Shown here piece by piece: positions 12,302 through 53,979 of a stretch of 64,000 nucleotides of DNA (position 1 is its first letter; each line of letters begins with the position of its first letter). Both the position numbers and the translations under genes were made by a program. The notes beneath the pieces were generated by a model that saw only the letters and a list, made by a program, of their open reading frames with translations, searched no databases and had not been told where the DNA came from. The stretch comes from a virus, in UHGV virus genome UHGV-0132893; one strand, given 5' to 3'.

Positions 12302-12475
12302 GTAAGCCTCTTTTAAGTAACTATTAAGTTTTAATCTTTTATCTTAACGTATTCTATACGTTATACTTTAAAGCTTTTTAAAAGCTATTAAATAATCTTT
12401 TAAGAGCTTTAAAGTATCTGTATAGTTAAACTGTTAAGTAACCTTTTAAGTAAAAACCCACTTCGCAAAGATTAA

Positions 12476-19260: not shown

Positions 19261-19392
19261 ATCACTTAAGAGTCTTTTAAGAGGGTTTTTAAGTGAGGTG
19301 TGGCACGGTAATGTTAGGTAGGGTCAGGTCAGGTCAGGTGAGGTAAGGTGATGTATGGAAGGATGGCAGTAGCCTTATAAAAAATCTGCCAA
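19261..19392. repeat. GGTNN pentamer-array element R4
   Basis: 5' box like R1, 3' hairpin like R2 with compensatory stem (tggcag/ctgcca). Confidence 0.7.
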
Positions 19393-19482
19393 ATAAGCTA
19401 TAAAATCTGTTGACAAGTCAGGTGTTATAGCTTATTTTTATACTCAATGTAATACAAAATTTAATATAACTTTGAGGTCATT

Positions 19483-49980: not shown

Positions 49981-50058
49981 TGGTAGGAGACAAGGGATTC
50001 GAACCCTCAAACACCAACTTCTAAGGATGGTAGGTTTACCAATTACCATCAATCTCCC
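49981..50058 (-). tRNA. tRNA, anticodon tentative (loop reads UAG)
   Basis: T-arm aaggg-attcgaa-ccctc; loop ccaac-ttctaag-gatgg. Confidence 0.45.
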
Positions 50059-50316
50059 ATTAAATCTTTTTAGAGAACTTCTAAGAACCTAAGCAACAAG
50101 GTTCCACAACAAGCTGTAATAACCTTAGAAGCCCTCTAAAAAGACCTAAAAAGGTCTTTGCATAGTCTTGTTTAATCCGGTGACTAGAACCTTTGGAGAG
50201 CTTGATATTATCTCTTCTCCGTGACACCTACTAGGTGTTTTATCAGTGTGTACGACAATACACGAGGGATACCAAAGCAACATCCGAATGAAGCTTGGCT
50301 TTAAAATCTTATTAGG

Positions 50317-50720: not shown

Positions 50721-50995
50721 ATTAACATTTTAAAGGGTACTTATTGCATTTAAGCCAAGCCCCATAAGGGATACCCTTTAGAATGTTGCCCACCTTATTA
50801 ATCATACCGTGGGCGAGTACGCCAAATTCTTTGATGAGGGATTGGAAGACCTCACTGGTGTTTAGCCTATCAAGCTACTGCCAGAAAAACATTGTCGTTT
50901 GCATTTATTTTAAATTTGCAAAATAGACGCTACGCAACGAAAACTAAGGTTACTATAAAGTAGTCACATCTCAATGTCAACAACTTTATTGAAAT

Positions 50996-51071
50996 TGGTA
51001 CTGGTAGGTGGAATCGAACCACCGATGTTCCCTTATCAGGGGAGTGTTATAACCTTCTTAACTATACCAGC
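50996..51071 (-). tRNA. tRNA-Ile (GAU)
   Basis: T-arm ggtgg-aatcgaa-ccacc; anticodon arm ttccc-ttatcag-gggag. Confidence 0.6.
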
Positions 51072-51227: not shown

Positions 51228-51303
51228 TGGTAGAAGTGGAGGGATTCGAACCCATCGCCTGTCAGATTAAAAGTCTGCCGCATCACCATTCTGCTACACT
51301 TCC
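51228..51303 (-). tRNA. tRNA-Lys (UUU)
   Basis: T-loop attcgaa; anticodon loop caga-ttaaaag-tctg. Confidence 0.55.
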
Positions 51304-51306
51304 ATT

Positions 51307-51449
51307 AAATTATCTTTGTAGATAAGCTACCCAGACTTGCTTAAGGTCTGTAGCGATGTGCCTTTTGGGTTTAAATCTAGAATTTACCCTTCACCCTTTG
51401 TGGTCGCATACTCACAGGTAAGCTTAATAACTTATCTACAAAGATAATT
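51307..51449. repeat. 19-bp perfect inverted repeat (aattatctttgtagataag / cttatctacaaagataatt) flanking 105 bp
   Basis: exact reverse complements at 51307-51325 and 51431-51449. Confidence 0.7.
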
Positions 51450-51730
51450 ACCAGACCGTTGTTTATCATCTTAAGTGCTACCATTACACCAACTCGACAT
51501 CTGCCGAGTGAAGGAATCGAACCTTCGCCTTTTCTTTACCGGAGAAATAGATTGTTTAAGTTTTGCTGTAAACGGTCTTCTGTAAATTTGTTGAGCCAGA
51601 CCAAGTTTTAAATTTTCAAAATTAAATTGGCTTGAAATTTCATACATTCTTGCTGTATTTGGTCTTCTGCTCCTTTAAAGAATACTCGTAAGAACTCTTT
51701 AAGGGAGGAGCTAAATAGCCCTCTCAAAAT

Positions 51731-51807
51731 TGGCGGCTACGATGAGACTTGAACTCACATCATCTCCCGTGACAGGGGAGTATTTTCTCCAGTTAAACTA
51801 CATAGCC
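51731..51807 (-). tRNA. tRNA-Asp (GUC)
   Basis: T-loop acttgaa; anticodon arm ctccc-gtgacag-gggag. Confidence 0.6.
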
Positions 51808-51985: not shown

Positions 51986-52068
51986 ATGTTTAGTATTACC
52001 AGACCGTATCTTTCAATTTTTCCGCTAAAAATTTAATGAGTATTGCTGTAAACGGTCTTCTGTAAATT

Positions 52069-52145: not shown

Positions 52146-52236
52146 ATTCTTAATGACCAGACCAAATCTCTTCTTTGTCCGATTTACCTTCAGATGAATA
52201 AGATTAAGTTTGCTGTAATTGGTCTTCTGTCAAAAC

Positions 52237-52563: not shown

Positions 52564-53979
52564 TTACCAGATGTAACGGTCAATCATTACTGCTTTGAGC
52601 ATTACGCTGATTGGGTCAAACTTCTCACCACCAAGCAGAGCTTTTAAAGTGGCTGGAGAGAAACCTGATACCATTGCTACACCGTTGTCCTTAACAGATA
52701 CTTCGCAAGTACCATTACGGTTTGCTAAGTACCAGAATACCAGTTGTGGCATCTCATATCCAGCTTTTTTGTACTTACTGCGAATTTCTTCAAAGTTTGT
52801 ACGACCATTTGCACCATCAACCTGATTGAACTCCATATCAGAGAAGATGATAAGCTTACTTGGCATATCTTTCTGAGTCAAGTTGTTTCTCTTACCTGTC
52901 TCAAGAATACGGTCAAAAGCTGCTTGTAAGTTAGTTGAGCCATATTCAACATGACGCATCACCTGACGATGACGGTTTTTCAAATCACCACTCAGTTCAA
53001 TGAAATGAGGGTTTGTTGAATAGACCATTAACTCGTCCTTAAAGCATCCTGTGTTGCGTTCTGCTACATACAAGGCAAGAGATACACCAATATCAAGAGC
53101 AGTGATTGAACCAAGATTTACCCAAGACATCGAGCTTGAGACATCAGTCATACATAAGATGTTTTCACCTTCTGCCATCCAGTTTGGTAGTGCTTTCCAC
53201 TGCTCATTCGCAACATCTGCATTACCATACTTGATAGACTTAATCACATCGTATGGGTAAACAGCACCAGCGTTAATCTTAGTCTCACCTTTTGATAAGG
53301 ACTCAATGTAAGCTTTGTAGCGTTCTCCATCTTTACGGTTAAAGAGTTTTTGGTAACGTGCAGCAGCGAGTGAAGGAATCTTGCTGTAGTCAATCTTACC
53401 GAACTCATTAGCAGAGATTTTTTGCTCAACCGTATCAGAAAGTGCAGACAACAGTGTGCGGTACTCTTTCTCACTCAAGTTGGAAAACTTGCAGAAACGT
53501 TTTACAAACTGTTTGTGTCGTGGTTTTACTCGTGGTAACCACTTGGCTGCTAAACCTGCTGTTTCAGGGTCTAGTAATGCTGCTTCTAAATGCTTAAAGG
53601 CATCTGTCTCAAAACGAGTACCTACAAAGATTTTGAAGTCATCAAAACGACCAAGTTCTGCAATCTTATCCATAATACGAAGAACCTGTGTAGGCTCTAA
53701 AACTTTGTCTTCGATTGCTTGAAGTAAAACAGTTCTGAAGGCTTTACGCTCACCCATACCTTCTCGTACATCTCGCATATGCAGCAAAATACGAACTGCA
53801 ACATCAACATCTTCACGCAAAGCTTTGTAGAACAAGTCTGGTAAGATTTCTACATTGCTACGGCTTGAACCAGCAGCTTTGTAAAAGTCTACAAGAGCAG
53901 ACATTGATGAAGTATGGTTTACAGCACCATTTTCAGTTCGACCTGCATGAAGGTGCGCATGTTTAAATAATTCGCTCAT
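52564..53979 (-). CDS. von Willebrand factor A (vWA) domain protein
   Basis: C-terminal half has MIDAS DxSxS motif (MTDVSSSM); 471 aa; adjacent to tRNA array. Confidence 0.6.
   Translation of the reverse strand: MSELFKHAHLHAGRTENGAVNHTSSMSALVDFYKAAGSSRSNVEILPDLFYKALREDVDVAVRILLHMRDVREGMGERKAFRTVLLQAIEDKVLEPTQVLRIMDKIAELGRFDDFKIFVGTRFETDAFKHLEAALLDPETAGLAAKWLPRVKPRHKQFVKRFCKFSNLSEKEYRTLLSALSDTVEQKISANEFGKIDYSKIPSLAAARYQKLFNRKDGERYKAYIESLSKGETKINAGAVYPYDVIKSIKYGNADVANEQWKALPNWMAEGENILCMTDVSSSMSWVNLGSITALDIGVSLALYVAERNTGCFKDELMVYSTNPHFIELSGDLKNRHRQVMRHVEYGSTNLQAAFDRILETGKRNNLTQKDMPSKLIIFSDMEFNQVDGANGRTNFEEIRSKYKKAGYEMPQLVFWYLANRNGTCEVSVKDNGVAMVSGFSPATLKALLGGEKFDPISVMLKAVMIDRYIW

What the first reader, a model, noticed from the sequence alone, without database searches (positions are those of the whole stretch)
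51307..51449. Perfect 19-bp inverted repeat enclosing 105 bp next to tRNA-Lys
aattatctttgtagataag (51307-51325) is the exact reverse complement of cttatctacaaagataatt (51431-51449). A 19-bp perfect inverted repeat is unlikely by chance at this AT content. The enclosed 105 bp has no ORF and no tRNA signature. Possibilities are a long-stem small RNA, a miniature inverted-repeat insertion, or a nuclease or processing site.
Basis: seen in the sequence. Interest (0 to 1): 0.5.

Follow-up and report, generated by a model that had tools for sequence, protein, structure and literature searches.

The report
Structured RNA before phage tRNA-Lys
The inverted repeat is the long closing stem of a conserved, undescribed 142-nt folded RNA that always sits just before the tRNA-Lys(UUU) gene in FelixO1-like phages, downstream of a Ro60-like protein gene, so it may be a new Y-RNA-type partner of that protein.

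Summary
The repeat is real; the first arm is 51308-51326, one base off. It is far beyond chance: 19 bp perfect against 11-14 bp in shuffles. It is neither a mobile insertion nor a DNA palindrome. It is helix P1 (24 bp including G-U pairs) of a 142-nt structured RNA on the minus strand, the strand of the 26-tRNA array. P1 ends 4 nt before tRNA-Lys(UUU). Six sequence versions, from Felixouna-, Susp- and Mooglevirus, Yersinia phage P778 and two or three metagenomic relatives, share one architecture. This comprises P1, an arm capped by UUCUAGA, a hairpin P5 with the 9-nt loop CYUWWGCAA, and a 5-bp pseudoknot. Across the three versions counted, 14 of 35 pairs changed on both sides and 98.5% of cells pair. 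A covariance model built from one version finds four others. No Rfam family matches. The operon starts with a 471-aa protein whose predicted fold matches Ro60. It also contains four units made of a closing stem plus an ACAGCAA box; one encloses a circularly permuted tRNA, laid out like YrlA Y RNAs. My best reading is a Y-RNA-like partner of the phage Ro60 (about 0.4). The main rival is a cis-acting leader or processing domain for tRNA-Lys. Function is untested.

The parts
51308..51449 (-). Whole structured RNA element (142 nt, type A version): P1, pseudoknot, P3-P4 arm and P5
   Evidence: The minus-strand fold is -48.3 kcal/mol, z = -5.3. Model R1, built only from type B sequences, hits 51305-51457(-) at 65 bits, E 1e-16.
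51426..51449 (-). P1 5' strand (AAUUAUCUUUGUAGAUAAGUUAUU).
   Evidence: 24 pairs including 3 G-U. 9 of the 24 pairs changed on both sides across versions A, B and C.
51308..51331 (-). P1 3' strand (GGUAGCUUAUCUACAAAGAUAAUU).
   Evidence: Same evidence as the 5' strand. The strand ends 4 nt (UAAU, 51304-51307) before tRNA-Lys position +1.
51419..51423 (-). Pseudoknot 5' strand, GCUUA, in the junction after P1
   Evidence: It pairs with UAAGC in the P5 loop. Types B and C have GCUAA pairing with UUAGC, so the middle pair switches A-U to U-A (12 versus 10 sequences). This helix was not part of the model. L145 also has GCUUA with UAAGC.
51353..51407 (-). P3 (GCGA 51404-51407 / UCGC 51353-51356), enclosing P4
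   Evidence: RNAalifold on type A. The equivalent 7-bp P3 in type B has two pairs with compensatory changes. The type A P3 itself never varies.
51367..51389 (-). P4 hairpin with apex UUCUAGA (51376-51382)
   Evidence: AUUCUAGAU is the only core sequence shared by types A and B. A-to-G changes in phage EC6 keep the pairing as G-U.
51332..51350 (-). P5 hairpin: CAGAC (51346-51350), loop CUUAAGCAA (51337-51345), GUCUG (51332-51336). It abuts the P1 3' strand.
   Evidence: 4 of 6 pairs changed on both sides. The loop reads C(C/U)U(A/U)(A/U)GCAA in all six versions.
51228..51303 (-). tRNA-Lys(UUU), the constant downstream neighbour
   Evidence: ARAGORN and Rfam. P1 ends within about 7 nt of tRNA-Lys(ttt) in the window, P778, L145, L146 and L147.
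51453..51578 (-). Context: a Y-RNA-like unit. An 8-bp closing stem (AGACCGUU / AACGGUCU) and an ACAGCAA box enclose a circularly permuted tRNA, in the order anticodon-like arm, T arm, closed acceptor hairpin, D arm.
   Evidence: The minimum-free-energy fold recovers this layout. The acceptor hairpin covaries across genera. The T-AS-D core was found by pattern at 51474-51526. Unit consensus.
52564..53979 (-). Context: 471-aa Ro60-like protein (Pfam DUF2828 + DUF7788), first gene of the operon
   Evidence: Pfam. The AlphaFold2 model has pLDDT 88. The top 10 Foldseek PDB hits are all Ro60/TROVE, E about 1e-8, TM 0.50-0.66. Mycobacteriophage homologs are annotated 'Ro-like RNA binding protein'.

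Best explanation
The inverted repeat is helix P1 of a 142-nt structured non-coding RNA, transcribed from the minus strand as part of the phage's Ro60-plus-tRNA operon. Shown: the RNA folds into a 24-bp closing stem and a compact core. The core has an extended arm (P3-P4) capped by UUCUAGA, and a hairpin (P5) stacked next to the P1 3' strand. The 9-nt P5 loop pairs with the junction after P1 to form a pseudoknot. The order of helices is that of a cloverleaf, with the loop-junction contact where the D and T loops meet in a tRNA. Inferred: RNase P cleavage at tRNA-Lys(UUU) position +1, 4 nt after P1, creates the element's 3' end and releases it as a stable RNA of about 145-150 nt. Inferred, and my preferred function: it is a Y-RNA-like partner of the phage Ro60 ortholog encoded 1.1 kb upstream. 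P5 presents a helix, then 5 nt, then GCAA. This is the geometry of the ACAGCAA box that follows the closing stem in the Y-like units found next to Ro60-like genes in many unrelated phages. On this reading P5 and P1 would dock the protein, and the pseudoknotted core would act as the effector or tether module, as in known two-module Y RNAs. Confidence that this is a selected, structured RNA on the minus strand is about 0.9. Confidence that it works with Ro60 is about 0.4.
For: Structure: counts on 22 sequences of versions A, B and C give 98.5% of cells paired against 28-44% with slid partners. 14 of 35 pairs changed on both sides, and 0 of 500 shuffles reach that. A model built from type B alone finds type A (65 bits), P778 (35 bits), L145 (38 bits) and L146 (21.5 bits), all full length. 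Strand: conserved G-U pairs, and sense scores of 181-192 bits against 21-24 bits antisense; all 26 tRNAs are on the same strand. Selection: between the window and DR094 the upstream 291 nt are 98.6% identical while the core is 45.6% identical, yet the architecture is kept. Ro60 context: the 471-aa ORF has a Ro60 fold. Bas63 gp130, its ortholog, was called Ro60-like and its authors suspected Y RNAs among the neighbouring 'tRNA' genes. Known YrlA RNAs lie within 4 kb of Ro60 on the same strand, and phage phiLo Ro60 binds two adjacent Y-like RNAs. T-AS-D cores occur 26 times on the Ro-gene strand against 3 on the other in 85 loci. RF02553 YrlA hits two such modules in L071 below threshold. Units with a closing stem and ACAGCAA box recur in Faith1, S13, L071, L138, P778 and four times in the window. 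The spacing from helix to GCAA is 5 nt in all six P5 loops and 3-5 nt (mode 5) in 13 units.
Against: There is no expression, RNA-end or binding data. The element lacks the published Ro-binding signatures: type A has no CGAA or GNCGAA motif, and P1 has no bulged helix (sequence). RF02553 does not match the element or the neighbouring permuted-tRNA unit even at E <= 10. The element is confined to one phage lineage and is absent from 75 more distant Ro60-like loci, so co-occurrence with Ro60 is not independent evidence. Its only constant neighbour is tRNA-Lys(UUU). L146 and L147 have no Y-like unit next to it. gp130 alone, expressed from a plasmid or from T7, counters the ppl defence, so that activity does not need phage RNAs. 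The similarity between P5 and the ACAGCAA box was noticed after the fact, and the same loop bases are also claimed by the pseudoknot. SP116 lacks the element and is a deposited, presumably viable phage.
Confidence: 0.42

Rival explanations
1. It is a cis-acting leader domain of the tRNA-Lys(UUU) precursor. The folded 5' leader, with a 24-bp duplex that RNase III could cut and that ends 0-7 nt from the RNase P site, controls the processing, stability or yield of the phage tRNA-Lys(UUU). It could also insulate that tRNA from upstream RNAs. It would have no role with Ro60 and no function after release.
For: All six versions lie directly 5' of tRNA-Lys(ttt), even though the upstream neighbour differs: a Y-like unit in the window and L145, tRNA-Ala plus 66-108 nt in L146 and L147, and about 520 nt in P778. 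A second long hairpin (more than 27 bp, z = -6.3) sits directly 5' of tRNA-Leu(tag) at 50055-50160. Other phages flank tRNAs with long stems (L071, L077). P1 keeps a length of 21-25 bp, which by general knowledge is about the minimum RNase III substrate.
Against: A processing stem does not need a conserved pseudoknot, a covarying P3 and P5, or invariant loops. The adjacency may simply be inherited gene order among related phages. The other 25 tRNAs in the array do without such a leader.
Confidence: 0.3
2. It is a trans-acting tRNA-shaped decoy or regulator that works independently of Ro60. For example, it could mimic a tRNA or a tRNA-Lys anticodon arm to divert host tRNA-targeting defence nucleases or tRNA-binding enzymes.
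For: The helix order matches a cloverleaf, with a loop-junction contact at the place of the D-T interaction. P4 can present a 7-nt loop, UUCUAGA. The two-allele pattern with sharp boundaries is what an arms-race locus could show. The link to tRNA-Lys(UUU), a known target of anticodon nucleases (general knowledge), is suggestive.
Against: tRNA models do not match. The 'acceptor' is 24 bp with no free CCA end. No defence system is known to be countered. The resemblance is topological only.
Confidence: 0.15
3. It is a miniature inverted-repeat transposable element or other mobile insertion with 19-22-bp terminal inverted repeats.
For: Terminal inverted repeats enclose about 100 nt with no conserved ORF.
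Against: There is one copy in the window and none in 5,426 E. coli genomes. No target-site duplication is present: the flanks are GGU and UAAU. It is at the same site in about 250 phage records and in relatives whose Ro60-like proteins are 53-63% identical. The arms covary to keep pairing, including G-U pairs, which DNA transposase sites would not do. The only absence (SP116) is a T-arm to T-arm recombination that also removes most of tRNA-Lys.
Confidence: 0.02
4. It is a DNA-level palindrome: a cruciform, protein-binding site, or replication or recombination signal.
For: A perfect 19-bp repeat could extrude a cruciform. The plus-strand fold is also stable (-43 kcal/mol, z = -4.6).
Against: Three to four conserved G-U pairs per P1 become A-C mismatches on the other strand, and the antisense model score is about 160 bits lower. 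The interior helices and the pseudoknot also covary.
Confidence: 0.03

Closest known systems
Bacterial and phage Y RNAs (YrlA, Rfam RF02553; YrlB; Thermus phage phiLo Yrl1 and Yrl2)
   Same: It is encoded on the same strand and within 4 kb (here 1.1 kb) of a Ro60 ortholog. The 5' and 3' parts form a long stem that closes a large structured module. It lies next to a tRNA-like RNA. The size is 100-150 nt.
   Different: It has no T or D arm, no GNCGAA or CGAA motif, and no bulged helix in P1. RF02553 does not match. The core is a pseudoknotted four-helix junction. It is embedded in a tRNA operon and fixed to tRNA-Lys(UUU). The associated protein belongs to the divergent DUF2828 branch of Ro60 (11-17% identity to the solved Ro60 structures).
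Phage T4 stable RNAs species 1 and 2 (rnaC, rnaD) in the T4 tRNA cluster (from my own knowledge, not checked here)
   Same: These are stable RNAs of about 120-140 nt, of unknown function, co-transcribed with phage tRNAs and released by the tRNA-processing enzymes.
   Different: No sequence or structural relationship was tested. T4 has no adjacent Ro60-like gene, to my knowledge.
RNase III processing stems (phage T7 early mRNA sites, rRNA operon stems; general knowledge)
   Same: A duplex of 21-25 bp, AU-rich and nearly perfect, lying between functional RNAs in one transcript.
   Different: Those stems enclose either the functional RNA itself or a small internal loop. Here the stem closes a conserved, covarying core with a pseudoknot.
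tRNA and tRNA-like structures
   Same: Four helices in cloverleaf order. The hairpin next to the 3' strand of the closing stem contacts the segment after the 5' strand, as T and D loops do. It lies in a tRNA array.
   Different: The closing stem is 24 bp rather than 7. The contact is a 5-bp Watson-Crick pseudoknot. No conserved tRNA nucleotides are present. ARAGORN and RF00005 are negative.
Miniature inverted-repeat transposable elements
   Same: Short terminal inverted repeats around a non-coding interior.
   Different: It is single-copy and fixed in position, has no target-site duplication, and shows RNA-type covariation.

Membership tests
Y RNA (Ro60-associated RNA, general definition) | Bound by a Ro60 ortholog | not testable with these tools
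   Needs RIP, CLIP or gel-shift experiments with the 471-aa protein (Bas63 gp130 ortholog).
Y RNA (Ro60-associated RNA, general definition) | Encoded near a Ro60 ortholog on the same strand (within 4 kb in Chen et al. 2014) | tested here: met
   The Ro60-fold ORF is at 52564-53979(-). The element starts at 51449(-), 1,115 nt downstream.
Y RNA (Ro60-associated RNA, general definition) | 5' and 3' parts pair into a long stem that closes a large loop or second module | tested here: met
   P1 has 24 bp with covariation and closes a core of about 94 nt. The RNA ends themselves are not mapped.
Y RNA (Ro60-associated RNA, general definition) | Ro-binding signature: GGUCCGA bulged helix (animals), or GNCGAAN0-1G / CGAA near the 5' side (bacteria, phage phiLo) | tested here: not met
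   Type A has no CGAA. Type B has GCCGAUG, with GCCGAAG only in Sf13 and Sf19. P1 is perfect in type A. A possible substitute, helix + 5 nt + GCAA as in the ACAGCAA box, is a post-hoc observation.
YrlA (Rfam RF02553) | Match to the covariance model; T and D stem-loops separated by a closed acceptor-like stem | tested here: not met
   RF02553 gives no hit on 51290-51740 at E <= 10, and the element has no T or D arm. The neighbouring unit (51453-51578) has the V/T/AS/D layout but also fails the model. L071 modules score 39 and 30 bits against a gathering score of 69.
Miniature inverted-repeat transposable element | Terminal inverted repeats | tested here: met
   19 nt perfect, 22 nt at 95%.
Miniature inverted-repeat transposable element | Multiple dispersed copies, target-site duplication, and empty sites that end at the repeat | tested here: not met
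   Single copy. Absent from E. coli genomes. The flanks GGU and UAAU are not duplicated. The SP116 deletion ends in T-arms.
RNase III processing site | Duplex of about 20 bp or more | tested here: met
   P1 is 21-25 bp in all versions.
RNase III processing site | Cleavage by RNase III in vivo or in vitro | not testable with these tools
   Needs a comparison of rnc and wild-type hosts, or an in vitro assay.
tRNA | Cloverleaf with conserved D and T loop nucleotides, detected by ARAGORN or RF00005 | tested here: not met
   There is no call at 51304-51455.
Intrinsic terminator | GC-rich hairpin followed by a U run | tested here: not met
   The terminator scan reports no site at the element on the minus strand. 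P1 is AU-rich and is followed by UAAUGG.
Known self-cleaving ribozymes, riboswitches and other curated RNA families | Match to any of 4,227 Rfam models | tested here: not met
   The only overlap is a chance-level 11.9-bit hit to CssrB.

The most novel reading that the evidence does not exclude
The element is a new class of Ro60-associated RNA. It would be a tRNA-shaped, pseudoknotted module with a 24-bp stem, produced together with the phage tRNA-Lys(UUU). With the phage Ro60 ortholog and the neighbouring permuted-tRNA Y RNA, it would form an anti-defence RNP that protects or matures phage tRNAs against host nucleases. Its two sharply bounded alleles (types A and B) would then reflect an arms race with host defences.
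Probability: 0.15. Interest if true: 0.8.

Novelty: new variant of a known kind. Interest (0 to 1): 0.55.

Why it matters
FelixO1-like phages are widely used typing, biocontrol and model phages (for example Bas63 of the BASEL collection), yet this RNA is either unannotated or mis-annotated as a 36-aa protein (bas63_0138). If it partners the Ro60-like protein, which in Bas63 counters the ppl defence, it gives a genetically tractable E. coli system for a long-open question: what Ro60 and Y RNAs do in bacteria and phages. The context also suggests that the large DUF2828 protein family (710 phage records) consists of Ro60 orthologs. These appear to have their own RNA partners, marked by a closing stem and an ACAGCAA box rather than the published CGAA motif. 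Even on the ordinary reading (a processing leader), it shows that phage 'tRNA arrays' hold conserved structured RNAs that tRNA finders and Rfam miss.

Tried and rejected
1. Rfam, at both 7 kb and 451 nt scale with permissive thresholds, found no family for the element.

2. An exact-pattern scan of IMG/VR with the 5' flank gave only Ounavirinae copies plus chance hits in coding genes.

3. A signature scan (loop motif plus long stem) and model R1 over 75 distant Ro60-like loci found no further homologs. The family is therefore lineage-restricted.

4. tmRNA or tag-peptide idea: candidate short frames starting with GCN differ between types and are broken by indels, and ARAGORN finds no tmRNA. Rejected.

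5. The idea that the element is the 3' domain of the neighbouring Y-like unit: rejected, because L146 and L147 carry the element without that unit.

6. The idea that the D3 repeat is a sigma-70 promoter: only one weak match, 9 of 12. The repeat is better explained as the 5' half of Y-like units.

7. The single-sequence AlphaFold model of the 471-aa protein was unusable (pLDDT 47), and a sequence search of the PDB found nothing. Only the alignment-based model worked.

8. Supplements of the Y RNA and PhageMaP papers are not held, and two Y RNA reviews are not held. I therefore could not obtain published YrlA alignments or Bas63 fitness scores for g137 and g138.

9. The loose scan for the ACAGCAA unit (6-bp stems) has a high background: 176 and 81 hits on the two strands, against 51-98 and 37-69 for scrambled motifs. 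Only the stringent instances are convincing.

Full report
**Observation.** The window is a Felixounavirus, 99.8% identical over the tested region to Escherichia phage vB_EcoM-Ro111lw. It carries 26 tRNA genes, all on the minus strand, between 47145 and 52398. The reported repeat exists. The repeat extends to 22 nt with one mismatch. As RNA with G-U pairs it reaches 24 bp. It is the longest perfect inverted repeat in the window with arms up to 300 nt apart, whereas 30 composition-matched random sequences reached only 11-14 nt. The arm occurs nowhere else in the window, even allowing 3 mismatches.

**It is RNA, on the tRNA strand.** About 190 Felixounavirus records carry a near-identical copy, which I call type A. 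About 60 records carry a second version, type B. These are Suspvirus, Mooglevirus and some Felixounavirus. Type B sits at the same place, between tRNA-Asp and tRNA-Lys(UUU), and has the same ends but a different interior.

RNAalifold gives the same architecture for both types:
- P1, a closing stem of 22-24 bp.
- A weakly supported 5' hairpin.
- An arm, P3-P4, capped by the shared sequence AUUCUAGAU.
- A hairpin, P5, that abuts the P1 3' strand and has the 9-nt loop CUU(U/A)AGCAA.

I built a covariance model from type B sequences only. It finds type A in the window at 65 bits (E 1e-16). It also finds a third version in Yersinia phage vB_YenM_P778 at 35 bits, with an entirely different P1 sequence. 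Further versions appear in two metagenomic relatives: L145 at 38 bits and L146 at 21.5 bits. L147 shows the same layout by folding.

On a 22-sequence alignment of versions A, B and C, 98.5% of cells in P1, P5 and a proposed pseudoknot form standard pairs. With partners slid by 1-3 columns the figure is 28-44%. Fourteen of 35 pairs changed on both sides, and 0 of 500 shuffles reach that. The alignment was fitted to P1 and P5, which favours them, but the pseudoknot was not in the model. It pairs GCUAA (types B and C) or GCUUA (type A and L145), just after the P1 5' strand, with UUAGC or UAAGC in the P5 loop. This is a clean A-U to U-A switch, though it represents few independent events.

Conserved G-U pairs in P1 would be A-C mismatches on the plus strand. 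Antisense model scores are 21-24 bits against 181-192 bits for sense. Small indels among near-identical phages, and the replaced core in type B, exclude the 35-36-aa ORFs that some records annotate here.

**It is not a mobile element.** The element is single-copy and absent from 5,426 complete E. coli genomes. It has no target-site duplication and is fixed in position across genera. The one phage lacking it, Salmonella phage SP116, has a deletion running from the T arm of the upstream tRNA-like RNA to the T arm of tRNA-Lys. That is recombination between two T-arm sequences, not excision at the repeat.

A different polymorphism exists. Between the window and DR094 (both Felixounavirus), the 291 nt upstream are 98.6% identical while the element core is only 45.6% identical. 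The element therefore exists as two alleles with sharp boundaries.

**Context: the Ro60-like gene.** The gene just upstream of the tRNA array (52564-53979, minus strand, 471 aa) matches Pfam DUF2828 and DUF7788. A sequence search of the PDB found nothing. An AlphaFold2 model built from 43 homologs (pLDDT 88) has Ro60/TROVE structures as its ten best PDB matches, at E about 1e-8 and TM 0.50-0.66. These include the Ro60 of Thermus phage phiLo. Homologs occur in 710 phage records and are annotated 'Ro-like RNA binding protein' in mycobacteriophages.

The PhageMaP preprint noted that the Bas63 ortholog gp130 resembles Ro60 and counters the ppl defence. Its authors guessed that some neighbouring 'tRNA' genes might be Y RNAs. 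Known YrlA Y RNAs lie within 4 kb of Ro60 on the same strand. They consist of a terminal stem plus V, T, acceptor-like and D stem-loops in that order. Phage phiLo Ro60 binds two adjacent Y-like RNAs and host PNPase.

**Context: the neighbouring Y-like units.** Immediately upstream of the element, at 51453-51578 on the minus strand, is an RNA with the YrlA layout. An 8-bp closing stem (AGACCGUU / AACGGUCU) encloses a circularly permuted tRNA: an anticodon-like arm, a T arm, a closed acceptor hairpin that covaries between genera, and a D arm. It does not match Rfam's YrlA model, so I call it YrlA-like in layout only.

The same T-AS-D order occurs next to Ro60-like genes in many unrelated phages, 26 times on the gene's strand against 3 on the other. 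Two such modules in L071 hit RF02553 below its threshold.

These modules share a previously unremarked signature: the closing-stem 5' strand, then 1-2 nt, then ACAGCAA, then an insert, then the closing-stem 3' strand, then GU. This is seen in Faith1 (three units), Cronobacter phage S13, L071 (four), L138, P778, and four times in the window at 52159-52225, 52001-52058, 51598-51665 and 51453-51578. ACAGCAA occupies the position of YrlA's proposed Ro-binding motif in the RF02553 consensus.

**What the element most likely does.** It is not simply the 3' domain of the neighbouring unit, because L146 and L147 carry it without that unit. Its one constant neighbour is tRNA-Lys(UUU), whose 5' end lies within about 7 nt of P1 in every version. 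RNase P cleavage there should therefore define the element's 3' end; this is inferred.

Two readings compete. The first is that it is a Y-RNA-like partner of the phage Ro60. In its favour are the operon context, the long terminal stem closing a second module, and the P5 loop. That loop presents a helix, 5 nt, then GCAA in all six versions. The ACAGCAA units have a spacing of 3-5 nt with a mode of 5. Against it: the published Ro-binding motifs are absent, the distribution is lineage-restricted, and gp130 alone suffices against ppl.

The second reading is that it is a cis-acting leader or processing domain for tRNA-Lys(UUU). This is supported by the strict adjacency and by a second long hairpin directly 5' of tRNA-Leu(tag). 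It is weakened by the elaborate, covarying core. A Ro60-independent tRNA-shaped decoy gets about 0.15, and the DNA-level and mobile-element readings together about 0.05.

**Novelty.** No Rfam family, GenBank annotation or paper I could search describes this RNA. It is best filed as a new variant of a known kind: a structured stable RNA in a phage Ro60/tRNA operon and a candidate Y RNA. Its architecture differs from that of YrlA. Bas63 carries type A at MZ501086 82902-83054, where a 36-aa 'hypothetical protein' (bas63_0138) is annotated inside it. The hypothesis can therefore be tested directly in an established genetic system.

Noticed in passing
window 52564-53979 (-): A 471-aa protein (Pfam DUF2828 + DUF7788) has a predicted fold matching Ro60/TROVE + vWA. 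Its top 10 PDB hits are all Ro60, although sequence searches of the PDB find nothing. The family occurs in 710 phage records. This suggests DUF2828 as a whole is a divergent Ro60 branch.
   Followed up: yes
window 51453-51578 (-): A circularly permuted tRNA lies inside an 8-bp closing stem, in the order anticodon-like arm, T arm, acceptor hairpin closed by AGAU, D arm. The acceptor hairpin covaries between genera, and in Mooglevirus it encodes G-CCA before the loop. Some GenBank records call part of it tRNA-Thr, tRNA-OTHER or a pseudo-tRNA. The layout is that of YrlA, but RF02553 does not match.
   Followed up: partly
window 52159-52225, 52001-52058, 51598-51665, 51453-51578 (all -); also L061 3948-4204, L063 4654-4788, L071 3730-4670, L138 6402-6515, L060 5644-5709: A recurrent unit consists of a closing-stem 5' strand, 1-2 nt, ACAGCAA, a variable insert, the closing-stem 3' strand, then GU. 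It is found next to Ro60-like genes in phages of Escherichia, Yersinia, Cronobacter, Mycobacterium and uncultured hosts, with different stem sequences. It is a candidate Ro-binding module of a DUF2828-type Y RNA family. My loose scan has a high background, so a proper model search is needed.
   Followed up: partly
window 50055-50160 (-): A second very long hairpin (more than 27 bp, -40.8 kcal/mol, z = -6.3) lies directly 5' of tRNA-Leu(tag). It is conserved in other Felixounaviruses (for example L064 8640-8729) and produced a spurious sub-threshold Rfam MIR473 hit.
   Followed up: partly
window 51308-51449 versus L001 (DR094) and relatives: The element exists as two alleles (types A and B) with sharp boundaries. 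The flanks are 98.6% identical but the core only 45.6% identical between two Felixounaviruses. Type B is more conserved between genera (93%) than its flanks (88%). This points to cassette exchange or diversifying selection.
   Followed up: partly
L144 (Salmonella phage SP116) 1486-1721: A natural deletion joins the T arm of the permuted tRNA-like RNA to the T arm of tRNA-Lys. It removes the D arm, the acceptor hairpin, the whole element and the 5' two-thirds of tRNA-Lys. This is an example of recombination between T-arm sequences within a tRNA array.
   Followed up: yes
L063 (Cronobacter phage S13) 4395-4515 and 4525-4637: Two 'tRNAs' of 121 and 113 nt lie right after the Ro60-like gene. Each matches RF00005 end to end but carries an insert of about 45 nt containing GCAAACUGAYAAGUUUGUAUUCAGCA in the anticodon region. 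ARAGORN calls neither.
   Followed up: no
L071 1245-1402: A 158-nt RNA has a closing stem of about 28 bp and CGAA at the 5' start of its internal loop, which is the published Y-RNA-like pattern. It lies next to a stem enclosing an orphan T arm, 3.6 kb upstream of a Ro60-like gene.
   Followed up: no
window 51680-51730 (-): A conserved 13-bp hairpin (CUCCCUUAAAGAG ... UUCUUUAAAGGAG) directly follows tRNA-Asp, preceded by a smaller GC-rich hairpin. It is nearly invariant across Ounavirinae in alignment A1.
   Followed up: no
L149 (Bas63, MZ501086) 2549-2701 and 2713-2823: The annotated hypothetical proteins bas63_0137 (50 aa) and bas63_0138 (36 aa), on the strand opposite the tRNAs, overlap the permuted tRNA-like unit and the element. 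They are probably mis-annotations. Any knockout phenotypes reported for them would really concern the RNAs.
   Followed up: partly
window 12363-12417 and 19391-19437: Two other inverted repeats turned up in the window-wide scan: a 27-nt near-palindrome with 1 nt between the arms, and 19-nt arms 9 nt apart. They look like hairpins or terminators.
   Followed up: no
window 50870-51054 (-): A sub-threshold Rfam hit to permuted tmRNA (29 bits against a cut-off of 47) overlaps tRNA-Ile and the spacer after it. ARAGORN reports no tmRNA.
   Followed up: no
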